Shown: one piece after another, positions 6,825 to 64,000 of the stretch | Numbering within the stretch: position 1 is the stretch's first letter | How the letters are laid out: each line of letters begins with the position of its first letter | Notes under the pieces: generated by a model | Databases searched by the model: none | The model's input: only the letters and a program-made list of their open reading frames with translations | What the model was told of the DNA's origin: nothing | Made by a program: the position numbers and the translations under genes | NCBI GenBank assembly: GCA_000002445.1 | Contig: CM000208.1 | Location: 3,264,001 to 3,328,000 of the forward strand | Direction: 5' to 3' | DNA length: 64,000 nucleotides | Origin: Trypanosoma brucei | Taxonomy: Eukaryota

Positions 6825-8915
6825 CTACACAACGCCCATGCTACCGTTAACGGGCGTTGCACCATAGGTGGGGTGTGCAAAGTTGGTTGTGTTGTAGTAT
6901 TGGCAATCGAAAAATCGCTCTAGCTCACCGCGCTGCAGCCGCTCCGTTGTTTCCTCAAGCGCGTCAAATACGTAGTCTGGGAAGTGGTTGGAAAACATCG
7001 ATGGGGAGCACACCACGGTTTGCACGTCGTCCGGAGTCTCGAATGTAGGGACAAACACGTTCTCCCGCTTGCTACAACAACAACATGGGATGCAGCAACA
7101 GCTTTTAGGAGTCCACCGCACCACGGCCTTGCGTAGGTGCACCAGCGTATATGGGGGAAACAGTTTCCTCTGATCCATAGGGAGTACGCACGCTTTGGAC
7201 TGCAACTGCGCTCGCACTGCCCTGCTTTCCTCTGAAGATAACGGTTCACACCTGCCCGCCGAGCTGTTCCGCCTTCCTAGAATGCATCTGTTCGCGAAAA
7301 TCAACGGTTTCGACATGTTGCAGCTCTCCAGCACGTCCAGCACTGATTCCCGGAGATCGTCAAAAGTGTGAGAGGCCGTCCGTGGGATTACATCGTTTCC
7401 GACAAAGCAGGCTAAGATAAAATCTTTGCTGTAGTGCGCAAGAGCCGGTGACATCAGCCCCCCAGGTGGTGAATACGCAAGGCATCGCAACCGCTCCCGT
7501 ACGCCCTCTTCTGTGGCGTAGAGCAAGATGCTAAGTACCGCGGCAACACCAGCACCAAGCGAGTGCCCCAGGACGACGAGTCTGTAGCTATTGAGCCCAC
7601 CATGCAGCACCGCCTCGAGCACACCCGACTCCCTCAGCTCGCGCAACACGTATTCAGCAGACCGTTTTATCCCCCCGTGAACATAATAGTCGTTGGCGCA
7701 CGCGCGTTCACTATTCGCCAGATCGGGAATAAACAGTGGCTCCGGGGTAGCCGTCACATCGGTTATGCAGTCGACAAATGAGAGCGTCCCACGGATTGCA
7801 ACAACAATGGATGCCGTCTCTCGGTCCAAAGCGACGTAGAACACAGGGCGAAAGAGAGCATTCCTCCAATTAGAAAGGATAATATCTTCCTCTGCAAGGC
7901 CACTCACCTTGAGGGCAGCCGTCAGATCGCAGAAGCAACCCGCCCCCTGGTGCGAGTTTGCACGCTTGCGGCAGCACATCTTTGGGTCGCTGCAGCACAA
8001 CTTCGGTAGGCCAGTACAGAGGTTCATATGAAGATACAGAAGACACCCATAAGCGGCCATGTAAAAACGGCTGTACTGCCGCAGTTCCACCACACACTGC
8101 CGTTGCTGTGAGGTTAGCAAAGGGAAGTAGCGGGCCTGGCTACTAACGCGCTCTTTGCACCCATCATCTGGTGGCGGAAAGCGAACGTGCGCCACACGCT
8201 CAAGAAGCACCCGCCGCTGTGCGTCGTGTAGCAGGATCATGCCCGCAAATATGTCGCTGGGCACCAAATCATAACCTTGAAAGAACGCAGCTAGAGTAGC
8301 TGCTGCATCCTCAAACACGTCATCGTCGTCTTCTGCTGGACGGAAGCAACAGCAACAAAGGAGGCGACACCGCCTGCCCCACAACATCTTGTACTCCTCT
8401 GAGTCCCCCCACTTGCGACCCCCATTGGGGTCGAATGAAAGGAGGAGGGAGATGACATGCAGCAGCGAAACCACGATATTGACGAGCAGAGATGCGTACA
8501 GGGAGCGTCTTGAAAATGGATCGCACATTTTCATAAACCCGTCATACAAGGAATACTTCAAAACAACGGAACTGAGCGGCAAACAACTTAGCGCCGTTGC
8601 TGTCGTCAAATAAAGAAGCGTGCCCACATGACGCCGCTTCGACACATGGAATGGACCACCACGACAACTCAGCAACGCACTAGCAAGGTGAAACGAAGCG
8701 CCAACACAGCTGATGATTCCAAGGGCGTACACACACCGTTCGTATTTTGGAGGAACTCCTGGGCATCCCTTCATGTCAACACTGAACCATCCGCCAAAGC
8801 GCGATAGTATAAGGGTCCCACTAGTAGTGAGAGCGGAGAAAAATACGAAGCTGGATAGAAAAAAATCATCAGTTCCAGTGCGCCACTTCCTTCCTAACCA
8901 TTGCAACGCCGGCAT
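6825..8915 (-). CDS. Class 3 (fungal-type / sn-1 diacylglycerol-lipase-like) lipase with N-terminal transmembrane region, 696 aa
   Basis: ATG at 8913-8915. Several N-terminal hydrophobic helices are present. A GHSLGAG nucleophile-elbow motif lies within a lipase_3-like segment (…YRLVVLGHSLGAGVAAVLS…). Confidence 0.6.
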   Translation of the reverse strand: MPALQWLGRKWRTGTDDFFLSSFVFFSALTTSGTLILSRFGGWFSVDMKGCPGVPPKYERCVYALGIISCVGASFHLASALLSCRGGPFHVSKRRHVGTLLYLTTATALSCLPLSSVVLKYSLYDGFMKMCDPFSRRSLYASLLVNIVVSLLHVISLLLSFDPNGGRKWGDSEEYKMLWGRRCRLLCCCCFRPAEDDDDVFEDAAATLAAFFQGYDLVPSDIFAGMILLHDAQRRVLLERVAHVRFPPPDDGCKERVSSQARYFPLLTSQQRQCVVELRQYSRFYMAAYGCLLYLHMNLCTGLPKLCCSDPKMCCRKRANSHQGAGCFCDLTAALKVSGLAEEDIILSNWRNALFRPVFYVALDRETASIVVAIRGTLSFVDCITDVTATPEPLFIPDLANSERACANDYYVHGGIKRSAEYVLRELRESGVLEAVLHGGLNSYRLVVLGHSLGAGVAAVLSILLYATEEGVRERLRCLAYSPPGGLMSPALAHYSKDFILACFVGNDVIPRTASHTFDDLRESVLDVLESCNMSKPLIFANRCILGRRNSSAGRCEPLSSEESRAVRAQLQSKACVLPMDQRKLFPPYTLVHLRKAVVRWTPKSCCCIPCCCCSKRENVFVPTFETPDDVQTVVCSPSMFSNHFPDYVFDALEETTERLQRGELERFFDCQYYNTTNFAHPTYGATPVNGSMGVV

Positions 8916-9282
8916 TCTACGAAATAGACGTGAGGAGAAGAACGCAAACTTTCAATAACTGCAAGAATGGACACACCAGCGTGTTAAGCAACCAGTGGAT
9001 GCAGCAGAACCCTGGTACACCATGCACAATAACCCCCCGAGTAAAAGCAACATTAATGGCTAAACCGAAACCCAGTGGCTGTCATTCACCACCGCTCAAC
9101 GCAAAATGCACCCTTCCCGACTTACGGTAGACGGCAAATAAAGTATCAGCAACATCATATGAATTAGAACAGTGTCCCAGGTAGATATTGCACCATGCCT
9201 CGTCCGTGTGGCAACTTAAAGTGCGACACGCAGCGGGCATATTAACAACCGAGCATTAACATAACCATAGCACATGTGTACG

Positions 9283-10020
9283 CAAGTACGAGCAAGCACA
9301 ACAAACACCTGGTGGCACAATAAGGAATATCACAGGGAAGAAACTAGAAGAAAGGAGGATAGACGGTGTGTACACAAGGCACCGACATACTCGCCTCGCC
9401 TCTTGGAAAGCCACCACCCACAACGCACCACCAAAAAGGCATGCCGTGGCTACGGGCCTCCTCAGAAATAGAAGGTAACACTGAAGAAACAGCAATGGGG
9501 GAAATTACTGCAGGTACGTGTCAGTCAAGTACAGCACTCTCGCTGAAAGCGTTGGTATCAATCAGCACTAAGTTGTCACTCAGTCGCGCACTACAACTTC
9601 TGTCCTCATACACAGCCATGCAGCAGAACATCTCCACCACATGTATCACCCCACAATGCATGCAAAGCACGGTGTGGGGCGGTTGTATGGGCGTCGATAC
9701 AGCAACAGTGAATAAAGATGCAGTGTAAACACACATAGCAGGAAGGAGTTAGGGACGGTAAATGCCGGTACAATCAACACCGCTGCTCAACATTTGTACA
9801 CATTCAAGAGTCCTCATTGGATGTGTCGGTCCGCCTGTCGTTAGACAGTTTCTCATCGTCGCAGCGGTGTCGTGCCCATAACATGTCACATTTCGCATAG
9901 TCCAATGATCCAAGAGTCAAAAGAGAAGGGAAAAAAGAGTAACGAGGGGAAGAAGGGAGGAATCAGATAGATTGGTAAACGCAAAGTTGGTTTCTCGCTC
10001 ATGATGGGTCGTCAGTGCGC
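9283..10020. repeat. Copy 1 of a ~740-bp dispersed direct repeat (second copy at 63101-63840, ~99% identical)
   Basis: Direct reading of both stretches shows they are collinear, with about 7 single-base differences. Flanks diverge immediately outside. There is no poly(A) tail and no obvious target-site duplication. The short ORFs inside are preserved only because the copies are near-identical. Confidence 0.85.
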
Positions 10021-10631
10021 ACTACAACTGCAGTCACATCACGCAGAGTAAACGCTATTGGAATATCTCCGCCTCCTGAAATCGCCCCACAACGATTTCT
10101 GCACATGTGAGGCGTTAGACAGAGACGTTGTACTTGATATCAGTGTAAAATAAGGACCATGTTGGCACGGAAAAGACAAGACAATGCAGTTGTCATGACA
10201 TCTTTTCACTGATGCATCCCCTATTCGCATAACTGTTACGTAAACATAATCACACATTACTCATAACACAAGTTGCTAGGACAAGCGACTTCACTACACG
10301 GTGTTGCTACGGAAACATACCTCACTGTGCTAACATACACTGCATCAGAATGCGATTACATGCATCTCAGCGTCACCTGGAAATCTGGGATACAATCGCA
10401 TCATACACTTGTCTAGTTTCGTAAGCAATGAGTTCTTGGTCACATACCACAGGTAATGTACTCTCTCAAATGAAAATATTGTGATGAGCACCGCTCGAGT
10501 ATTCTGCAATGATTCCGTTTGTCGACTCACAATGTGACGATGGAAAAGAATGAGGATATCAAGTTATTGCATTTTAGGTTTTCATGTCAACTAGAAAATC
10601 AGAGAGCCGACACCACATCCCCTCAGTATCT

Positions 10632-12686
10632 CTACGCAACTAGCTCCGTATCCATTGCCTTCACCGCCGGAATACAATATTCAAATGAAAGCAGAACAAT
10701 ACCAATATCCCACGCGTCGTCACAGGGCCCCAAGTTGTTTTCGTGTATAAACGGTAATTCACATTTTTGGTTCGGTATTTGTGAGGTGCGCTTGGAACGG
10801 CTCCGTCCAACTTCAATTAATCCCTCATAAACGCCAGGCTGTAGGTGAGAAACTCTCGTTACCATTTCACCACTGTTGAGTGAATAAGGTGTACGGTTAG
10901 TTTCTACAACATGTGGCATGTGTTGGTCCTCAGTTCCGGGGATGCATAACGTTGCAGGGGAATCTTTTGCGTCTGCAAGTGGCGACAGTGCCTCACAATA
11001 GGGGAGAGGGTGACCACAGCACCCAATAAAACTGTTGATGAAGGAAGCCGCGGAGCACTTTGATGAAATAGATAAAAATATATCAATAACTTGCTTTAAG
11101 AAGTCACATTCGACTGAAGTTTGCTTGCAATGCTCACTGGACCAGGAGTACATCATTTCCACGGCTGCGTTGATTTCAACAAAAAGTAAAGGTTTTTTAT
11201 CTCGGTGAAGAGAGTCTGTTGAAGGCAATGAAACGCGACCAAAGTTTACCGTCACGTGCTGATGTGGAAATACACGCCATTCCCCCAACTCTTGGAGAAC
11301 AAAGATGACTCCTCCACAAAGAGGTCCTTCCTGCCGGGAAGCAGACACCACATTTTCCGTATTTCCATATTCGGGTATAAAGCATGCCCCCACAAGAGAC
11401 TCATTGGAAATAGGGTATCTTTGCAACACCTCAGCTTCAGAAAGGACAAACCACGGAGGGCAGAGATGCAAGAAGAAACCGCAACAGTCAAAGTGAAAAG
11501 GAAGATTGCGTACCGTGCCACCATGTCGCAAGCATAGTTTGCGTTCGGATATTTCGGTCATTGTGAACCAACAGCATGGCGTTGAAGCTAAGTGGATTTG
11601 GGCATCATCATTTTCCTCCATATCTTCATTGTCCATACGATTCTCAAGCTGTACAGGCTCTCCTGTAGCAGCCCAGTAGTTCAGGACCCGGCCTGCATGA
11701 AACGAAGAGTAATTAGCGGAATAACGTCTCTGATTTGCCCGATCACTGAAATCCACATTCATCAATGTGATATCCTCCTCAACATGAAATTGGTGAATGT
11801 CTTGCATTCGTGGAAGGAAATATTTTGAAAACGGTCCACGAAACGGAACAATCCATGCACGCCAATAACCAGTTGAATCGGAACTAGAAGCTGGCAGCTC
11901 TATCTCTGAGGACGAAAAAATATCATCAAAAAACCATCCATCTTTCTCCCACACAATATGACCTGAATAAGGTGTCTCCACAGCAGAAACTGTCGAGACA
12001 GATTCAGCAGCAAGTGATGGTTTGCTTTCCAATGCTGCTACCATATTCTGATCCATTAGATTTGATCCTTTAGACAGTTGGTGAAGAAACTGCAACCCTC
12101 CTTCGGTGCGTCGGAGCTCTTTCTGAAGCAAACGAGTCCTCATACAATCAGCAATATTCAGCCGCTGTTCGCAACGAAAGAGTTGAATAATGATTGGTGT
12201 CGGTGATGCACCGGGAACCTCCGAGGGTTCCACGCTAACCTTCGTAGTAGACAACAGCAATGACTGAGCGGAACTGCTCCCCACACACCAATCACGCATT
12301 GATGGAACAGGGTTTGCTGAAATCGTGGGGTACCTGAAATTCCCGTCATTTATATAATTCAGAAGCGTTTCTTGCACCCCTTCCGGACAGTAGTAGCAAG
12401 GCGTAGCAGACAGAGGCAAAAGGGAATTCGGCGCCACGGTGGGACATCGTGTCTCTCCTGTTCTCTTAAGAAAATCTCCCCTCTTCCGCAATACAATATA
12501 CCCCCATCGCAGCATCAGTCGAGGTAGACACGGAAATGCACTCCGCAGAGCCTCCGCCAAACTATGGAAGGAAATAAATGTCATTACAGTGCAGAGGCCC
12601 CTTCCCCACCCTACTTGTGACAAGAACAGAACACATGCATCACACATGCAAAAGATAAAAATATATACGTCGACACAAAGTACCAT
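10632..12686 (-). CDS. Hypothetical protein (Cys-rich central region), up to 684 aa; true start uncertain
   Basis: Long uninterrupted minus-strand ORF with an ATG at 12684-12686. The first ~30 residues are low-complexity, read through a TA-rich tract, so the real start may be an internal Met (M35 or M58). No family recognised. Confidence 0.5.
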   Translation of the reverse strand: MVLCVDVYIFIFCMCDACVLFLSQVGWGRGLCTVMTFISFHSLAEALRSAFPCLPRLMLRWGYIVLRKRGDFLKRTGETRCPTVAPNSLLPLSATPCYYCPEGVQETLLNYINDGNFRYPTISANPVPSMRDWCVGSSSAQSLLLSTTKVSVEPSEVPGASPTPIIIQLFRCEQRLNIADCMRTRLLQKELRRTEGGLQFLHQLSKGSNLMDQNMVAALESKPSLAAESVSTVSAVETPYSGHIVWEKDGWFFDDIFSSSEIELPASSSDSTGYWRAWIVPFRGPFSKYFLPRMQDIHQFHVEEDITLMNVDFSDRANQRRYSANYSSFHAGRVLNYWAATGEPVQLENRMDNEDMEENDDAQIHLASTPCCWFTMTEISERKLCLRHGGTVRNLPFHFDCCGFFLHLCPPWFVLSEAEVLQRYPISNESLVGACFIPEYGNTENVVSASRQEGPLCGGVIFVLQELGEWRVFPHQHVTVNFGRVSLPSTDSLHRDKKPLLFVEINAAVEMMYSWSSEHCKQTSVECDFLKQVIDIFLSISSKCSAASFINSFIGCCGHPLPYCEALSPLADAKDSPATLCIPGTEDQHMPHVVETNRTPYSLNSGEMVTRVSHLQPGVYEGLIEVGRSRSKRTSQIPNQKCELPFIHENNLGPCDDAWDIGIVLLSFEYCIPAVKAMDTELVA

Positions 12687-13760
12687 ATATTAACAGCGCA
12701 CATAATCATGAACTCATGAACGCAGCGATATTCATATCCTGCAAGAACAAAGAATATACCCAATGAAAAGGTATCAATCATCTTTTGACTGGAACCAGGC
12801 TACTTTGATCCAACCCTATCAAACTGGTATGGGTAAAAACGTACCAGTTATTATGACACCTAGATAACACCATGTATTTGAGTGTTGATTATTTAGCCGT
12901 TCACACCAATCACCAATGGCAGAAGTCCGTAGAGTAACTGGCAAAACCAAATCAGTTGTGTTCACGCGTAGCATATACACCATACCGTGCAACTAATAAC
13001 GGTACCGATATGCCATTCACACTCACACATCCCACAGATTCTCCACGCTATCTGTCACCGTGCTTGGCACTTTCACAAGTTCCATCTGCTTCAGCTATGC
13101 TACTTCAGTACCACTAATTGTACAAACATATTCCGTGGCGTATGCCCACACAGACACACACACGTGATAATCCTACTGAAAAGAGGCAATGTGAAGAAGT
13201 AAAAACACCGATGAAAGCAATACAAAAACAGCGAGTGGGGAAGGCGACCTACCCGAAAAGAAACATTAAAACGCACATTAACTTTTTTCTAATGGAAAAC
13301 AATGGGTATCATATCAATGGACGAAAATAATTAAAAAAAGAATAACAATGCAGGGCAGTGAGCAGAACCATACAATGAGTCAAATGGGAATGCAGCAGCA
13401 GCCAACCACGGTTGCAGCAAACATGTCGCCTCGATGTCTCAATCATAACCCACGTATGGTAGTCTGTGTTACCCTTGGGTTCATACGCCCTCCTAAAGAA
13501 ACAAGTTGTAAAATGTTATACTACGCCGGAAACTATTTATTATTATATCCACTCTCTCCACAGAACCAATCACTCTCTCGTTATTAACACACTAAATTAC
13601 GGAATAAAAGTTAGACATTAGTGTCACAGCGCTCTTCAGATGTTAAGGGGTTTCGATATTAGCGAATAGAATGAGGAGTAAAAAGAGAGTCAAACATATC
13701 AAATCATAAATAACAAATAACCAAATATGAGAAGAAGGGGAAGAATAAAGCATCATGTAC

Positions 13761-14107
13761 TCATTTAGTTATATCAGACACCACCTGCCCACCATGACGC
13801 CGCACGAAATCCAGACGGCGGGGCACCAGGAATGCCTTCCCTTTGCCAAGTCGGAAAAAGATGGCAACGGCAAGAAGCCCGCTTAGCATGCCAATAACGC
13901 TACCAGCCACTACATCACCGCTGTGGTGACGATTGTCGCGTAACCGACGAAGTTGCGGGAGAATGCACGGTCTCGGCATGTGTTTTTTCTCTTAATACCT
14001 TGCAATATTTTTCCACTACATGATAGCTGCATCGCAACTGTTATTGAAGGTGCGGTTTGGTGCGGAAAAGATGTGGTGAAGGCCTCAATCCGCATAATGG
14101 ATTGCAT
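13761..14107 (-). pseudogene. Degenerate, frameshifted relic of a PAP2-family lipid phosphatase gene
   Basis: ORF 13761..13979 encodes …LRRLRDNRHHSGDVVAGSVIG…IFFR…LVPRRL…. This is collinear with the C-terminal SRxxxxxHxxxD region of the intact PAP2 at 61662..62660 (SRTRDNRHHFSDILGGSVIG…IFFR…LVPRRL). Immediately upstream, in a different frame (13910..14107), lies SFPHQTAPS, matching a decayed SFPSGHSSC (PSGH) motif. No intact N-terminal half is present. Confidence 0.45.
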
Positions 14108-14518
14108 CCTGCCGTCGCATGCCGCTAGCGTTATTTCATCTCTTCCCTTTCTTCTGCCGAGTTGTTAGAGCTGCATTTAAGCCTTATGTACCTTTACTTT
14201 TTTTTTCTATTCTTAAAGAACACTCAGCCCTCCTTATAGTCTTAGCGGTTGAGCAGGAAATCAGCATAAATAAAGAAGTGCGTCAATACTTGCCATATTG
14301 GCTGTTGCGACGAGAGGAAAGTGGAAATTTTTGTTTCTCTGCAGTAATACTGCACGTTTTCCTCCTTTCTTTTCCTTGATTTTTTTCAGTAGAGTACTAA
14401 TTAATAATAGGTGTTTAGTAGTTTCCTGGTTACTCATAATAATAATAAGTGAATAATATGTCAACAGAGGGAGGGGGAACGAGTGATGATAAAAAAAAAA
14501 GGAGGATTTCAGCATTAC

Positions 14519-15514
14519 TCACAGATATTCCAACGAGTAACCGAACACCATCTTTATTGCATCGAAGAAGTTTGCTCTCCACCCTTCCTTCACGTTCTGC
14601 AGTTCACCCTCCGGAATGCCCACCTGAGCAAACTCCAGCAACGTCACCCCCTGTTCTTCTTGTTCCAGCGACATGACAACGGAGCTGTGGATGCCGCTCG
14701 GCCAACTGCGAAGCCTCCATTGCATCTTAATTAATGAATTTGGCACCACTTCAACAAAGAAACCCGTGATGACTCCACCAAGGAAGTCAAATATGCCTCC
14801 CGAGCGGGGGTCGATCTTCGCGGGGGCACGCGTGTATACTGAGGCTCGCTGCTCATTCATAAGCACAGTGAAGAGCTCCTCAACAGGAATTCTCCACCGC
14901 ATCTTCCACGAAAAGTTTGTGGACGATACATTACCACCTGCTGAGCTCGTTGTAGGTTTTTCGTGGGTGCTTGCCGACTTGTTATTCTGTGGAGGTGGGG
15001 GCGGCAGCGATGATCCGTTCTTCAGGTTCTTACCGATTTGATAGGTCTCAAACAACTCTTCGAAGTATTTGGTGATGACGCCACGGACTGCTGCACGACC
15101 CTTCGCACGCACGACAGCCTCAGCCCTCTGCGTCTCATCTTTGTTATCCGTTGTCGTAACCACGATATCGTACTCGTCGCGGAAGCTATCGTGATCAACC
15201 TCTGGAACAGTCATCTTACCCGACACCTCCTTCTCACCGGACCACTTCAATGTTAGTTTAAGTTCAAAGTAACACATCATCTTTCCTTTGCGCTGTGCAA
15301 CCGTCACGTCTCCAGAGATTTCACTCACCTCCGAAATGTGAAGGTTGTAACCATCGTCATCGCTGCATAACTTGAAGTTGTTAAGTCTGCGCTTGAGTTC
15401 CTCATGGCAGTCGTTGGAGAGGTCCCGTTCTTCCCAGTGCCAAGCGTTCACATTCTGTCCATCCTTACGGTCATTCACAATCCAGCGCGGATCTCCTTCA
15501 CCTATACGCGCCAT
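14519..15514 (-). CDS. Aha1-type activator of Hsp90 ATPase (N-terminal Aha1_N + C-terminal AHSA1/START-like domain), ~332 aa
   Basis: The N-terminus MARIGEGDPRWIVNDRKDGQNVNAWHWEERD matches the Aha1_N signature (RW…R.DG.NVNNWHW.E). The Pro/Ser-rich linker and C-terminal domain fit AHSA1. The track ORF begins at a TTG. The first ATG is at 15512-15514. Confidence 0.7.
   Translation of the reverse strand: MARIGEGDPRWIVNDRKDGQNVNAWHWEERDLSNDCHEELKRRLNNFKLCSDDDGYNLHISEVSEISGDVTVAQRKGKMMCYFELKLTLKWSGEKEVSGKMTVPEVDHDSFRDEYDIVVTTTDNKDETQRAEAVVRAKGRAAVRGVITKYFEELFETYQIGKNLKNGSSLPPPPPQNNKSASTHEKPTTSSAGGNVSSTNFSWKMRWRIPVEELFTVLMNEQRASVYTRAPAKIDPRSGGIFDFLGGVITGFFVEVVPNSLIKMQWRLRSWPSGIHSSVVMSLEQEEQGVTLLEFAQVGIPEGELQNVKEGWRANFFDAIKMVFGYSLEYL

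Positions 15515-57134: not shown

Positions 57135-57175
<41 letters not shown>
57135..57175. repeat. (CA)20 microsatellite abutting the stop codon of the nucleotide-sugar-transporter gene
   Basis: The 41-nt cacaca… run is read directly. The NST stop (TAG on the minus strand) is at 57175-57177. Confidence 0.9.
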
Positions 57176-57178
<3 letters not shown>

Positions 57179-58254
57179 TGATGTTCCTCTCCTTTCGAAG
57201 TTTGCCCCGCTGCTGTATGATGCGCATGCGAATCGTACTTGTTGTACAGCACTGCCGACAGAGTTATCAGGGTAGCCCCCACGATAAATAGCAGTGTCAT
57301 GGGCGTTTCCCAGATGAAATATGATGCGATGCCGCTTAATATCACTGCGCCCCCTGTAGCAAATGTTTTGAGAATGTTATCGGCATACTTCATCGCCGCG
57401 GAAACGAGCAACCCACCGAGCGCATTCAAGCAAACAAGCGCAATAGTAAGCCACTGGTCGTATCCCTTCCAGAATCTGAACGGCTCGCGCCCCTGACCCG
57501 CATTGCTCCCATATGAGGGGAGCACGTCAAAAATGAGCATGGCTAATGCAGCGAAAAGAATACCGAACCGAGAAAGCTGGATGTTTCGGGTTGCCAGAGA
57601 TGGTTTCGTTGTTTTGGCAAGCTTCTCGAAATACACTGATGCGTAACTTGAAGATAATGCAGAAATGAGGCACGCCAGTGTCCCAACCACTGGACGCTGA
57701 GTAGCGGTGGTAGCTGTATGTCGCGGATTAGATCCCTGCGCCTGCGTTAACAGAACACCGATTGAAAGCAAAAGCAACGAAAGCCACTGCATGGACGACA
57801 AATGCCGTCCCAACATGTATTTCGACAGTAGTGCGGTAAACGGAAGCTTCGTCTGTGATAACACCTGGAATGCTGATGCCTCCAGGTTGGCAAGACTGAG
57901 AAAGATTAGGTAGTTCTGCGACACGAAGAGGAAAGCGGGTACAAGCAACTCACGTGCCTCTTTGCAGAAGCAAACACCCCACAGCACCGTAAGAAATCCA
58001 CCACCAGAAGGAGTGTTCATGCACGCCGCGTTGGGCAGAGCCGTCGAGCACTTGCCACCCTCCTGTGATAAAAGGAAAAGACACACCACCATTTTCAAAA
58101 TTTCTTGATTCAGCACAAGCGTAGAGGTGTGGTAACGTTTCTCTGGAGGGATGTTAATTCTAGAGTATCGTGTTAGCACCACCAACAAGCTATTTTGCAA
58201 CATTAGTACCACAAGACTGATTGACGCAGCCGAAAGCCATTTAACGGAAGGCAT
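57175..58254 (-). CDS. Nucleotide-sugar transporter (SLC35A / UDP-galactose transporter family), ~359 aa, ~10 TM helices
   Basis: Multi-pass hydrophobic profile with NST-family blocks (…QNSLLVVLTRYSR…, …YQVLSQTKLPFTALLSKYMLGR…, …KYADNILKTFATG…). The ATG is at 58252-58254. The preceding track Met is a GTG. Confidence 0.7.
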
Positions 58255-59075
58255 CACCGGTTTAAAGTTTGCAAGCAGCTTTCACACCTCGAATCCAATT
58301 TTGAAACACGCAACAGGTCTGAAATTCCCTTTCAACAGAAGGAAGAGCGACCGGTACAGTTTCCCCCCCCCCTCCCTTTTGGGTTTCTTGGCGGTGGGGA
58401 GCGACGACTACACCTCTTCCTTTTTGTATTCCTGTGAAACACCGTCCCTTGGTACTACTGTATGCTCGACCACAGCGAGGTAAAGCCACTGAATAAGGTG
58501 GGCGTAAAGATCAAAGACACCTAGTCGAATGCGTCCAACACATAAACACAAACACGAACACATACGCTCGTGGGTACACAAAAATAAAAACACACATGTA
58601 TTGGGTTTAAAGTTCACGCTTTCCCCTCTTCCGCACAGAGTTTGGCGGCCTAACACTGCATCTCAACTATTACGTGCATGCCCTACACGTCCTTCGTGTT
58701 CTTCATAAAACACTCCCTCCTTCCTACCCGTAACATTATAAAGAACGCAAATCCTCACCGTCCTCACAACGGCCAATAACGATCTGCGCAAAAAACAAAA
58801 AGAAAGATACCGTTTTCATTACTTTGAAAATGGCAACCACGACCTGCTGCACTCATCTAAAACATAGCCTTAACTACTTTACCTCTACCTCCGCTGACAA
58901 AAAAAAAAGCTCGGAGTCGCCGCGGTGTCGAAACGTGACACCCCTTGCGCCCCATGGCGCCACGTCGAACGATCTCCGCATCACCACACTAACGTCCTTT
59001 CGTCTCCCCACCATGCCGAACTGTACTAGACTATGCGACTAAAGTAATGATTCACCTTTCCCACTCATAATATCA

Positions 59076-61661: not shown

Positions 61662-62660
61662 TCAAACAGTATCATTGTCGTTTGGCGATCCGCTACGGCG
61701 GCGGGGCGGCTCCAGACGGCGGGGCACTAGATAGCCTTCACCACTTCTCACACGGAAGAAAATATTAACAGAGAAGGCACCGATGACCAGACCGATGACG
61801 CTTCCACCCAAAATATCGGAAAAATGATGACGATTGTCACGGGTCCTTGAGGCCGCAACACATATCGCAAGATAAATTGGAAACATGCTTAGGATGATAC
61901 GCCACACGGGGCCGCTGTTAAAAGCACGTGATAAACCAAGGAAATACATTGTCAGTGGCGTAAATGCAGCAAATGCGCAGCTGCTGTGACCTGAAGGAAA
62001 TGACAGACGGCCTTCTCTGGCGAGGCTGCACGCATTTGACGGCGGCGATGTCGCATTAAAGCCCTCACGCCTCAACCGATCAAGGAAATCGGGACGAAGT
62101 CTTCCAGCGTAAATTTTAAGTACATCGACAATACCAAGCGAAAAGAAAAAGGCGAAAACCACTGAAAGAATCCACAGGTTAATCACCTGATCGACAATAA
62201 ACTTTCGCTGCACCTTCCTCTCAAAGGAAGGAGCTGGTGGTAGATTTTCCAAGCCATTGCGTTCCCTCACAGAAGCGCCGCCTCTGTTGGCGGCTCTCTC
62301 TTCCGACAAAACGTTCGTAGAAGACGTGATGGAATTAGATGATGGTTCAGGCAATTGCTCGTCCATATACCACTCCCCTACCGGGGAGTAACGCTCACGC
62401 ATTTTCTCGATTATAAAGATAAATAAACATGATACAAGAGCCATAACTACGAGACTCCAGTCAGGGAAAGTCTCCTTCTCGGCAAATGAGTTGTTGATAC
62501 TCAGATCGTCCCACGAGAATGTGCGGCAGTATGGGCGGATCAGTCTCCCGAGGAGAAATCCAGTTGCACCGAAACAGAAAGCGACAAGGTAATCCAACAA
62601 CCGAAGCACTTTCGCATAGTACAAGTAAACGGCAAAAGAGGAACGACCTCCAGTGGCCAT
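61662..62660 (-). CDS. PAP2-superfamily lipid phosphate phosphatase, 332 aa, six TM helices
   Basis: ATG at 62658-62660. All three PAP2 motifs are present in order: KIYAGRLRPDF (K-x6-RP), SFPSGHSS (PSGH), SRTRDNRHHFSDILGGSVIG (SR-x5-H-x3-D). Confidence 0.75.
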   Translation of the reverse strand: MATGGRSSFAVYLYYAKVLRLLDYLVAFCFGATGFLLGRLIRPYCRTFSWDDLSINNSFAEKETFPDWSLVVMALVSCLFIFIIEKMRERYSPVGEWYMDEQLPEPSSNSITSSTNVLSEERAANRGGASVRERNGLENLPPAPSFERKVQRKFIVDQVINLWILSVVFAFFFSLGIVDVLKIYAGRLRPDFLDRLRREGFNATSPPSNACSLAREGRLSFPSGHSSCAFAAFTPLTMYFLGLSRAFNSGPVWRIILSMFPIYLAICVAASRTRDNRHHFSDILGGSVIGLVIGAFSVNIFFRVRSGEGYLVPRRLEPPRRRSGSPNDNDTV

Positions 62661-63100
62661 TTTCGCACTTCTTGAAATGATTAATTACTCCCAAGAACTA
62701 CGACTTGTATCAAACACGGGGGAAAGCAAGATGTAGAGAGCACTAAAGGAAGACAACAAACTCGGAAAGAAAACACCAGGCCAGAAAATAGGCGGTCTTT
62801 CACTACCACCAAACAGCAAACATCACACAACCATACCGTCTGCAAATGCATTATTATGAAACTCAGTGCGCTGCGCCACATTGGCACGGTAACAAGAGGC
62901 ACACGGCACAAAAAAAGACCATACCACACAACTGCCACCCACAATAACATCTACAAGCCGACAACACGGGGCTCAGCTTTAACGATACTGACAAGTGCAC
63001 TCCGGTAAGTGTAGTGATATTTTTCAAGAAGCATAACATAAGCCTCACTTCTACACCACCGATAACGCGTGCAAATAAGCCTGGCGGTGAAACTCCAACG

Positions 63101-63840
63101 CAAGTACGAGCAAGCACAACAAACACCTGGTGGCACAATAAGGAATATCACAGGGAAGAAACTAGAAGAAAGGAGGATAGGCGGTGTGTACACAAGGCAC
63201 CGACATACTCGCCTCGCCTCTTGGAAAGCCACCACCCACAACGCACCACCAAAAAGGCATGCCGTGGCTACGGGCCTCCTCAGAAATAGAAGGTAACACT
63301 GAAGAAACAGCAATGGGGGAAATTACTGCAGGTACGTGTCAGTCAAATACAGCACTCTCGCTGAAAGCGTTGGTATCAATCAGCACTAAATTGTCACTCA
63401 GTCGCGCACTACAACTTCTGTCCTCATACACAGCCATGCAGCAGAACATCTCCGCCACATGTATCACCCCACAATGCATGCAAAGCACGGTGTGGGGCGG
63501 TTGTATGGGCGTCGATACAGCAACAGTGAATAAAGATGCAGTGTAAACACACATGGCAGGAAGGAGTTAGGGACGGTAAATGCCGGTACAATCAACACCG
63601 CTGCTCAACATTTGTACACATTCAAGAGTCCTCATTGGGTGTGTCGGTCCGCCTGTCGTTAGACAGTTTCTCATCGTCGCAGCGGTGTCGTGCCCATAAC
63701 ATGTCACATTTCGCATAGTCCAATGATCCAAGAGTCAAAAGAGAAGGGGAAAAAGAGTAACGAGGGGAAGAAGGGAGGAATCAGATAGATTGGTAAACGC
63801 AAAGTTGGTTTCTCGCTCATGATGGGTCGTCAGTGCGCAT
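63101..63840. repeat. Copy 2 of the ~740-bp dispersed direct repeat (pairs with 9283-10020)
   Basis: Collinear and ~99% identical to copy 1. The differences I can see are g/a at the aggatagRcgg position, caagtac/caaatac, ctaagtt/ctaaatt, ccaccac/ccgccac, catagca/catggca, ttggatg/ttgggtg and one G in the gaaggg(g)aaaaa run. Confidence 0.85.
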
Positions 63841-64000
63841 TACGACCGTTCTTTCCACTGCATGCTTGAAAAAGGAAAGATCTTCAAGCTCATTTTGTAA
63901 TTTCAGTGCGGCCGCTGGGATGAACACTATCCTTGGTGGTGTCTCCCCTTTTGCGGTGTGGCAATTCCGTATACAGAGCAATGGACGACGAATCTCGACG

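What the first reader, a model, noticed from the sequence alone, without database searches (positions are those of the whole stretch)
13761..14107. Frameshifted relic of a second PAP2 lipid-phosphatase gene, paralogous to the intact PAP2 at 61662-62660
The C-terminal catalytic motif region (RDNRHH…D…GSVIG…IFFR…LVPRRL) is conserved in one frame. The upstream PSGH-motif region survives only in a different frame, decayed to SFPHQTAPS. No N-terminal half is present. This looks like a decaying paralog, roughly 50% identical at protein level and so old, not a recent copy. Both the relic and the intact gene lie within a few kb of a copy of the 740-bp repeat, but in different relative order, so this is not a simple tandem duplication. 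Alternatively this could be a genuine short gene encoding only the C-terminal PAP2 segment.
Basis: partly seen in the sequence, partly recalled or inferred. Interest (0 to 1): 0.5.

Follow-up and report, generated by a model that had tools for sequence, protein, structure and literature searches.

The report
PAP2 gene fragment at duplication edge
The 72-codon ORF is the already-annotated Trypanosoma brucei gene Tb927.10.13700: an almost exact copy of the last 61 codons and 3'UTR of a full-length lipid phosphatase gene about 115 kb away, cut off where a 4.9-kb duplicated block ends, so it is an ordinary truncated duplicate and not an old decayed gene.

Summary
The PAP2 C-terminal similarity at 13761-13979(-) is real (tblastn E=1e-13 to the intact PAP2; Pfam PAP2 E=3e-5). 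The claimed frameshifted 'PSGH' remnant (SFPHQTAPS, 13910-14107) is chance. [quoted passage not shown] It does not derive from the intact PAP2 at 61.6 kb. It is 60/61 identical to the C-terminus of a third, full-length 330-aa PAP2 (T. b. gambiense CBH16518.1; inferred Tb927.10.13400), located outside the window. A 4.9-kb block (window 13946..9046) is duplicated at 98-99% identity between the two loci. It holds the PAP2 3' end, its 3'UTR, a 684-aa gene and a snoRNA cluster. The block's edge cuts the PAP2 CDS at codon 270, with no homology beyond. The same junction occurs in four T. brucei-group assemblies. T. vivax, T. cruzi and T. melophagium have no PAP2 next to AHA1, so the fragment was probably born truncated. 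The two copies evolve in concert. The product lacks catalytic motifs C1 and C2 and cannot be a phosphatase. Practical consequence: the two 'LPP' epimastigote markers from 3' scRNA-seq share a near-identical 3' end and are not independent.

The parts
13761..13979 (-). [quoted passage not shown] It is a chimeric ORF.
   Evidence: Exact-sequence look-up; name and ID in PMC10270622; adjacent to Aha1 = Tb927.10.13710.
13761..13946 (-). PAP2-B-derived part: codons 270-330 plus the stop codon of the parent gene. Contains R-x5-H-x3-D (the C3 motif without its Ser) and the last transmembrane helix.
   Evidence: 60/61 aa identical to P0007/P0123 residues 270-330; DNA 99.4% to L001 and 98.3% to L002.
13947..13979 (-). 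Eleven N-terminal codons (MPRPCILPQLR) supplied by locus-specific, non-PAP2 sequence. An in-frame stop lies 4 codons upstream of the ATG.
   Evidence: Frame translation; junction alignment.
13946..13947 (.). Proximal boundary of the duplicated block, at nt 807/808 of the 993-nt parent CDS. Identical in TREU927, DAL972, T. b. equiperdum and T. equiperdum OVI.
9046..13946 (-). 4.9-kb duplicated block shared with the full-length PAP2-B locus about 115 kb away (T. b. gambiense L002 10808-15705).
   Evidence: blastn 98.3% (window vs L002) and 99.1% (L004 vs L002); sharp distal end at ~9046.
12687..13760 (-). Duplicated PAP2-B 3'UTR and intergenic region. Only 2 differences in the first ~720 columns between the two T. 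b. gambiense copies.
10632..12686 (-). 684-aa gene with no Pfam hit, inside the block. It is ancestral at this locus: a homologue lies between AHA1 and the lipase gene in T. vivax.
   Evidence: tblastn vs L008: 28% identity over 542 aa, E=9e-55.
9285..10128 (-). Copy of the '740-bp repeat' = snoRNA cluster TB10Cs4 (H/ACA snoRNAs H2, H3, H4), inside the block.
   Evidence: Rfam gathering-level hits; blastn.
13947..14518 (-). Locus-specific spacer (AHA1 3'UTR and possible trans-splice signals for the ORF). Unrelated to PAP2.
   Evidence: Shuffle test; polypyrimidine/AG scan.
13910..14107 (-). 65-aa ORF containing 'SFPHQTAPS'. A chance ORF, not a PAP2 remnant.
14519..15514 (-). AHA1 (Tb927.10.13710), 331 aa from the annotated ATG. 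The upstream neighbour.
61662..62660 (-). Intact PAP2-A (XP_827876.1), a family member but not the parent of the fragment. Positional orthologue of T. vivax P0003.
62653..63846 (-). Region upstream of PAP2-A, 97.7% identical to the region upstream of PAP2-B. Includes the second TB10Cs4 snoRNA cluster copy (63116-63846).

Best explanation
The ORF is the truncated end of a segmental duplication. Shown: a 4.9-kb block is present twice on T. brucei chromosome 10, about 115 kb apart. It contains the last 186 nt of the full-length lipid phosphate phosphatase gene PAP2-B, that gene's 3'UTR, the next gene (684 aa) and a snoRNA cluster. At the AHA1 locus the block begins inside the PAP2-B coding sequence at codon 270. 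By chance the unrelated sequence upstream provides an in-frame ATG and 11 codons, giving a 72-codon ORF that annotators named as a phosphatase. Inferred: the 684-aa gene was already at the AHA1 locus, as it is in T. vivax, and a second copy lay next to PAP2-B. Recombinational repair or gene conversion between these copies used the PAP2-B locus as template and ran past the end of homology into the PAP2-B 3' end. The snoRNA-cluster repeats supplied extra homology. The break was then sealed to non-homologous sequence downstream of AHA1, so the fragment was born truncated. Later gene conversion keeps the two blocks nearly identical. The peptide has one transmembrane helix and an incomplete C3 motif, and it lacks C1 and C2, so it cannot be a phosphatase. 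Because it carries the parent's 3'UTR, any mRNA made from it would share the parent's epimastigote-specific regulation, and short 3' reads cannot reliably tell the two genes apart.
For: Identity with a full-length gene: 60/61 aa to residues 270-330 of P0007/P0123. Block: L002 10808-15705 = L004 10034-14938 at 99.14% = window 13946..9046 at 98.3%. Proximal junction is 100% identical below 13946 and random above it. No residual homology upstream. Distal end is sharp at ~9046. The same junction is found in four assemblies. Synteny: T. melophagium and T. cruzi have AHA1 - amine oxidase - lipase. T. vivax has AHA1 - homologue of the 684-aa gene - lipase - PP5. No PAP2 is found by tblastn in any of these loci. 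T. congolense AHA1 is TCIL3000_10_11950, while its PAP2 genes are _11530 and _11760. Concerted evolution: the two T. b. gambiense copies are 99.42% identical, versus 98.45% for TREU927 vs gambiense at the same locus. At 57 sites the gambiense full-length-locus copy groups with the gambiense and equiperdum relic copies against TREU927, while only 10 sites are unique to the full-length locus. Motifs: C1 and C2 absent, the Ser of C3 replaced by Arg, one hydrophobic segment. Pfam score is below the gathering threshold. Expression: in Vigneron 2020 Dataset S1, Tb927.10.13400 shows fold changes 8.7/19.8 and Tb927.10.13700 shows 9.9/23.0, from 10x 3' v2 reads mapped to TREU927, while AHA1 is not significant.
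Against: The direction and order of events are inferred, not shown. The ancestral position of PAP2-B could not be fixed: the T. vivax co-orthologue (a tandem pair beside NMT) shares no flanking genes with the T. b. gambiense PAP2-B locus within +-10 kb. No TREU927 330-aa protein is in the protein collection, so equating the parent with Tb927.10.13400 rests on indirect evidence: the shared misspelt product name 'Phosphatidic acid phostphatase', its listing as an LPP gene, and a co-regulated downstream 'hypothetical protein' Tb927.10.13410. Microhomology at the junction is at most 4 nt (CGTC) with a 2-nt offset, which is not significant. L001 (T. equiperdum OVI) is probably a collapsed consensus of both copies, so it was not relied on for the conversion argument. 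Cross-mapping of scRNA-seq reads is an inference, since no reads were examined.
Confidence: 0.85

Rival explanations
1. Decay in place. A complete PAP2-B gene once sat between AHA1 and the 684-aa gene, the whole unit was copied to the other locus, and the 5' three-quarters of the original were later deleted.
For: The 684-aa gene is ancestral at the AHA1 locus, so the block at this locus is not simply an insertion. The ancestral site of PAP2-B is unresolved.
Against: No PAP2 lies next to AHA1 in T. vivax, T. cruzi or T. melophagium, and none is adjacent by gene numbering in T. congolense. AHA1-to-684-aa-gene spacing is 1.83 kb in T. brucei and 1.7 kb in T. vivax, leaving no sign of a lost gene. 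There is no trace of PAP2 sequence or frameshifted remains upstream of the junction. This scenario also needs more steps.
Confidence: 0.1
2. A genuine short gene. The 72-aa single-pass membrane peptide is translated in epimastigotes and has a function of its own, for example binding to and modulating the full-length LPP. This concerns function and does not contradict the duplication origin.
For: The ORF is intact in four assemblies. It is annotated as a gene and reported as an epimastigote-enriched transcript. Polypyrimidine tracts followed by AG exist upstream. The AHA1 transcript behaves differently, which suggests a separate mRNA.
Against: With <=1.5% divergence among strains, ORF intactness has no statistical power. 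Identity to the parent is maintained by gene conversion of the whole 4.9-kb block, non-coding parts included, not by selection on the peptide. C1 and C2 are missing and C3 has lost its Ser. Transcript counts may come from the parent by cross-mapping. No protein-level evidence was found.
Confidence: 0.07
3. Assembly or sequencing artefact that creates an apparent truncation.
For: The block is a 99% repeat, and a short-read assembly does break there.
Against: An identical junction is found in the independent chromosome-level assemblies TREU927, DAL972 and T. b. equiperdum. The T. equiperdum OVI contig also reads 31 nt across it.
Confidence: 0.01

Closest known systems
Full-length PAP2-B lipid phosphate phosphatase of the T. 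brucei group (T. b. gambiense CBH16518.1, T. equiperdum SCU70130.1; inferred Tb927.10.13400 in TREU927)
   Same: The last 61 codons are 98-100% identical. The stop codon, 3'UTR, downstream 650/684-aa gene and snoRNA cluster are the same. Both fall in the same 90% protein cluster.
   Different: The parent has 330 aa with C1 (KVYAGVLRP), C2 (PSGH) and C3 (SRLRDNRHHSGD). The fragment lacks residues 1-269 and starts with 11 unrelated codons.
Intact PAP2-A in the window (61662-62660; XP_827876.1)
   Same: Same Pfam family, with 55% identity over the C-terminal 53 aa. Its upstream 1.2 kb is shared with PAP2-B.
   Different: It is not the source of the fragment. It belongs to a different orthologue group (T. 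congolense 10_11760, T. vivax P0003) in the tree.
Partial (truncated) duplicated pseudogenes or gene fragments at segmental-duplication boundaries, a general and well-known class (own knowledge)
   Same: A high-identity block whose edge falls inside a gene, leaving a 3' fragment with the parent's 3'UTR. Concerted evolution with the parent.
   Different: Here the fragment acquired an in-frame ATG, is annotated as a protein-coding gene, and is used as a stage marker.

Membership tests
PAP2 / type-2 lipid phosphate phosphatase (Pfam PF01569) | Motif C1, KxxxxxxRP | tested here: not met
   Absent from the 72-aa product. Present in PAP2-A (K182) and PAP2-B (K180).
PAP2 / type-2 lipid phosphate phosphatase (Pfam PF01569) | Motif C2, PSGH | tested here: not met
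   Absent from the product. The proposed out-of-frame remnant SFPHQTAPS is not distinguishable from chance.
PAP2 / type-2 lipid phosphate phosphatase (Pfam PF01569) | Motif C3, SRxxxxxHxxxD | tested here: not met
   RRLRDNRHHSGD: the R-x5-H-x3-D part is kept, but the Ser is replaced by Arg because the junction falls just before the Arg codon.
PAP2 / type-2 lipid phosphate phosphatase (Pfam PF01569) | Whole-domain match above the Pfam gathering score; multi-pass membrane core | tested here: not met
   24.0 bits versus a 27.2-bit cut-off, covering profile positions 94-128 of 130 only. One hydrophobic segment, residues 23-41, Kyte-Doolittle 2.34.
Segmental duplication with a truncated gene copy at its edge | Two copies longer than 1 kb at over 90% identity, at separate loci | tested here: met
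   4.9 kb at 98.3-99.1% identity, about 115 kb apart on T. b. gambiense chr10.
Segmental duplication with a truncated gene copy at its edge | Abrupt loss of homology inside the parent CDS, with no residual similarity beyond it | tested here: met
Segmental duplication with a truncated gene copy at its edge | No gene at that position in outgroups (derived state) | tested here: met
   No PAP2 in the AHA1 loci of T. vivax, T. cruzi or T. melophagium. For T. congolense this rests on gene numbering only.
Expressed functional micro-protein gene | Translation, or purifying selection on the peptide | not testable with these tools
   Only transcript-level reports exist, and they are confounded by the shared 3' end. 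Divergence is too low for a selection test.

The most novel reading that the evidence does not exclude
The fragment is not inert. Either the 72-aa peptide (the last LPP transmembrane helix plus the His/Asp half of C3) is made in epimastigotes and modulates the full-length LPP, or its mRNA, which carries a duplicate of the parent's 3'UTR, acts as a second target or decoy for the RNA-binding proteins that give epimastigote-specific expression. In either case the fragment would be retained for that reason and not merely dragged along by gene conversion.
Probability: 0.06. Interest if true: 0.5.

Novelty: already known. Interest (0 to 1): 0.2.

Why it matters
The main value is as a correction. Tb927.10.13700 is annotated as a phosphatidic acid phosphatase and is used together with Tb927.10.13400 as two of five epimastigote marker genes, the 'LPP genes' (PMC7007551, PMC10270622, bioRxiv 10.1101/2023.01.09.523188). 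It encodes only a non-catalytic 72-aa tail, and it shares a ~99% identical 3' coding end and 3'UTR with the other marker. In 3'-end single-cell data the two are therefore not independent, and their counts may be split arbitrarily between the loci. The locus is also a clean small example of ectopic duplication and gene conversion within a trypanosome polycistronic unit, flanked by dispersed snoRNA-cluster repeats. It does not reveal a new kind of system.

Tried and rejected
(1) A database search with the 72-aa ORF alone found nothing because the word index is too coarse for so short a query. The relation was recovered by BLAST against hits of the intact PAP2. (2) tblastn of 120 PAP2 proteins against 12.6-14.6 kb in all frames gave only noise outside 13761-13979, so the frameshift idea was rejected. 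(3) Exact look-ups of the window's AHA1 ORF from its TTG start (335 aa) and of the 650-aa form of the neighbouring gene found no record, because the annotated starts differ. As a result the TREU927 copy of the parent locus could not be fetched. (4) I tested whether the T. vivax PAP2 tandem locus is syntenic with the PAP2-B locus. It shares no flanking genes, so the ancestral site of PAP2-B remains open. (5) I looked for an amine-oxidase remnant in the window, since that gene follows AHA1 in stercorarian trypanosomes. None was found. (6) Using the T. equiperdum OVI contig L001 as an independent 'full-length locus' copy was dropped after L013 showed the assembly breaks at the repeat. (7) The primary LPP paper (Alves e Silva 2016, PMC4824234) is not in the library. 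(8) Junction microhomology is too short to support any claim.

Full report
OBSERVATION. The ORF at 13761..13979 on the minus strand (72 aa: MPRPCILPQLRRLRDNRHHSGDVVAGSVIGMLSGLLAVAIFFRLGKGKAFLVPRRLDFVRRHGGQVVSDITK) exists as described. tblastn of the intact PAP2 protein (61662..62660-, 332 aa) against the whole window gives a single secondary hit at 13946..13788, with 29/53 identities and E=1e-13. Pfam PAP2 matches at E=3.4e-5, but only over profile positions 94-128 of 130 and at 24.0 bits, below the 27.2-bit gathering score. So the C-terminal similarity is real.

None of 120 kinetoplastid PAP2 proteins gives a meaningful tblastn hit outside 13761-13979. The 572 nt between the AHA1 stop and the homology edge score 12 against the 5' part of the true parent gene, versus 11.6+-1.3 for shuffles. 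The 65-aa ORF scores no better than 155/500 and 92/500 shuffles against PAP2 N-terminal parts.

IDENTITY OF THE LOCUS. The 72-aa sequence is an exact database entry: XP_827853.1 / EAN78741.1 / Q388M9, 'phosphatidic acid phosphatase alpha, putative', of T. brucei brucei TREU927, on the 4.05-Mb chromosome 10 record. The intact PAP2 is XP_827876.1. The upstream neighbour is AHA1 (Pfam Aha1_N + AHSA1), which is Tb927.10.13710 (PMC9538636). The fragment is Tb927.10.13700 (PMC10270622). The same 72-aa gene is annotated in T. b. gambiense DAL972 (CBH16580.1) and T. b. equiperdum (RHW68878.1).

THE REAL PARENT. Among PAP2 homologues the fragment is not closest to the intact gene in the window (55%). 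It is 60/61 identical to residues 270-330 of a different, full-length 330-aa PAP2, here called PAP2-B: T. equiperdum SCU70130.1 (P0007) and T. b. gambiense CBH16518.1 (P0123). In T. b. gambiense chromosome 10, PAP2-B lies at about 3.156 Mb (locus L002) and the fragment at about 3.271 Mb (L004), roughly 115 kb apart.

DNA comparison shows one colinear block: L002 10808-15705 = L004 10034-14938 at 99.14%, and = window 13946..9046 at 98.3%. The block starts at nt 808 of the 993-nt PAP2-B CDS. It runs through the stop codon, the 3'UTR and intergenic region, the next gene (684 aa here, annotated as 650 aa in gambiense) and a ~840-bp repeat. It ends sharply at about 9046, 130 nt upstream of the lipase_3 gene.

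At base resolution the relic and full-length loci are identical from GGTTACGCGAC... (window 13946) downward and unrelated above it. The ATG and first 11 codons of the ORF come from the unrelated upstream sequence and happen to be in frame. There is therefore no frameshift and no decay: this is a breakpoint.

The identical junction is present in TREU927, DAL972 and T. b. equiperdum (CM010681). The T. equiperdum OVI contig that carries AHA1 also reads 31 nt across it before the short-read assembly breaks at the repeat. That excludes an artefact and dates the event before these lineages split.

DIRECTION AND HISTORY (partly inferred). AHA1 loci of outgroups were fetched. T. melophagium has RRM - AHA1 - amine oxidase - lipase_3 - PP5 - CNNM. 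T. cruzi has RRM - AHA1 - amine oxidase - two small genes - lipase_3. T. vivax has RRM - AHA1 - (uncalled) - lipase - PP5. tblastn finds no PAP2 in any of these loci. It does find a clear homologue of the 684-aa gene between AHA1 and the lipase gene in T. vivax (28% identity over 542 aa, E=9e-55). T. congolense AHA1 is TCIL3000_10_11950, while its two PAP2 genes are _11530 and _11760.

So the 684-aa gene is ancestral at this locus and PAP2 is not. The PAP2 3' end must have been imported from the PAP2-B locus, where a second copy of the 684-aa gene lies immediately downstream of PAP2-B. The most economical reading is recombinational repair or gene conversion between the two copies of the 684-aa gene that copied past the end of shared homology into PAP2-B, and was then joined to non-homologous DNA downstream of AHA1. 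Any microhomology at the joint (CGTC, with a 2-nt offset) is too short to count as evidence.

The alternative is that a complete PAP2-B once sat here and lost its 5' part. It cannot be excluded, because the ancestral site of PAP2-B is unresolved. In an NJ tree, PAP2-B and the chromosome-8 paralog are co-orthologous to T. congolense 10_11530 and to a T. vivax tandem pair beside NMT, but that T. vivax locus shares no flanking genes with L002. This alternative needs more steps and has no support from outgroups.

CONCERTED EVOLUTION. Across the block, the two T. b. gambiense copies differ less from each other (99.42%) than the same locus differs between TREU927 and gambiense (98.45%). Using chromosome-level assemblies only, 57 variable sites group the gambiense full-length-locus copy with the gambiense and equiperdum relic copies against TREU927, and only 10 sites are private to the full-length locus. 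Variation therefore sorts by lineage and not by locus, as expected from continuing gene conversion. Sequence identity cannot date the duplication, and the perfect state of the ORF says nothing about selection on the peptide.

WHAT THE ORF CAN AND CANNOT DO. PAP2/LPP enzymes are defined by motifs C1 (KxxxxxxRP), C2 (PSGH) and C3 (SRxxxxxHxxxD) in a multi-pass membrane core (established family knowledge). PAP2-A and PAP2-B have all three. The 72-aa product has neither C1 nor C2. It keeps only R-x5-H-x3-D of C3, with the Ser replaced by Arg at the junction, and it has a single hydrophobic segment. It cannot be a phosphatase, so the name 'phosphatidic acid phosphatase alpha' is an annotation by partial similarity.

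EXPRESSION LITERATURE. Vigneron et al. 2020 (PMC7007551) used 10x Chromium 3' v2 reads mapped with Cell Ranger to TREU927. [quoted passage not shown]
- Tb927.10.13400: fold changes 8.7 and 19.8; means 1890/218/95.
- Tb927.10.13700: fold changes 9.9 and 23.0; means 1451/146/63.
- Tb927.10.13410, the gene next to 13400: follows more weakly.
- AHA1: unchanged.

Later papers use both genes as separate markers or 'LPP genes'. The misspelt product name is the same as that of T. equiperdum P0007. Together with the LPP label and the co-regulated neighbour, this is my basis for equating PAP2-B with Tb927.10.13400 in TREU927. That is an inference: the TREU927 parent locus lies outside the window, and no TREU927 330-aa protein is in the protein collection.

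The two gambiense copies differ at only 2 positions in the first ~720 nt of the block, which covers the 3' CDS and proximal 3'UTR. Read-length tags from the 3' end will therefore often be ambiguous or be assigned by strain SNPs. The parallel behaviour of the two 'markers' is expected either from cross-mapping or from a shared regulatory 3'UTR. Polypyrimidine tracts followed by AG exist between AHA1 and the ATG, so a separate trans-spliced mRNA is possible but not shown.

THE 740-BP REPEAT. Rfam identifies it as the snoRNA cluster TB10Cs4. H/ACA snoRNAs H2, H3 and H4 lie at 10063-10128, 9630-9695 and 9401-9463, and H3 and H4 occur again at 63448-63513 and 63219-63281, all on the minus strand and well above gathering scores. 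The cluster is known (PMC3273796). One copy lies inside the duplicated block downstream of the 684-aa gene. Another lies upstream of PAP2-A. In gambiense, further copies lie upstream of PAP2-B and downstream of its 650-aa neighbour. The link to the mechanism is inference.

VERDICT. This is a real but ordinary feature: a truncated, non-catalytic 3' copy of a lipid phosphatase gene at the boundary of a homogenised 4.9-kb segmental duplication, already annotated as Tb927.10.13700. The frameshift, the parent gene and the 'old decaying' reading do not. The useful by-product is a caution about annotation and about using 13400 and 13700 as independent stage markers.

Noticed in passing
window 9285-10128 and 63116-63846 (minus strand): The '740-bp repeat' is the snoRNA gene cluster TB10Cs4 (Rfam hits TB10Cs4H2, H3, H4). 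At least four dispersed copies exist on T. brucei-group chr10: two in the window and two more at the PAP2-B locus in T. b. gambiense (L002 8715-9557 and 14723-15453).
   Followed up: partly
window 62653-63846 vs L002 8814-10008: The 1.2 kb upstream of intact PAP2-A is 97.7% identical to the region upstream of PAP2-B. The identity ends 8 nt into the coding sequences, which are themselves only ~66% identical. This is a second sharp duplication or conversion boundary, at the start codon. The two LPP genes therefore share a 5' flank and probably the 5'UTR and splice-acceptor region.
   Followed up: partly
L010 11480-12922, L012 11397-12851 vs window 8915-14519: Stercorarian trypanosomes (T. cruzi, T. 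melophagium) have an amine oxidase gene (Amino_oxidase/NAD_binding_8, ~480 aa) between AHA1 and lipase_3. T. brucei and T. vivax have the unrelated 684-aa gene at that position and no amine-oxidase trace.
   Followed up: partly
window 10632-12686; L002 12064-14119; L003 11681-13348: The 684-aa gene with no Pfam hit is annotated with different lengths in different copies and strains (684-aa ORF here, 650 aa in T. b. gambiense, 555 aa in T. b. equiperdum). The gambiense PAP2-B-locus copy has a frameshift near the N-terminus relative to the window, and protein identity is only 93.7% despite ~98% DNA identity. One copy may be degenerating, or the true start may be the internal Met.
   Followed up: no
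L001 (CZPT02001361.1) and L013 (CZPT02001250.1): The T. equiperdum OVI short-read assembly breaks 31 nt inside the duplicated block at the AHA1 locus and holds the block only once, attached to the full-length PAP2-B. That contig is probably a collapsed consensus of both copies.
   Followed up: yes
L007 10001-12418 (T. vivax SOPI01000403.1): T. vivax has a tandem pair of 327-aa PAP2 genes beside N-myristoyltransferase. In the tree they are co-orthologous to T. brucei PAP2-B plus the chromosome-8 paralog, so the LPP family has been rearranged repeatedly in African trypanosomes.
   Followed up: partly
window 57135-57175: A short simple-sequence (dinucleotide-type) repeat matches L002 7490-7525 at several offsets. 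It lies at the 5' end of the nucleotide-sugar transporter ORF (57175-58257).
   Followed up: no
protein collection, cluster of P0007: No TREU927 330-aa PAP2-B protein is in the collection, although Tb927.10.13400 is used in the literature. The GenBank TREU927 protein set may lack it or hold a different model.
   Followed up: no
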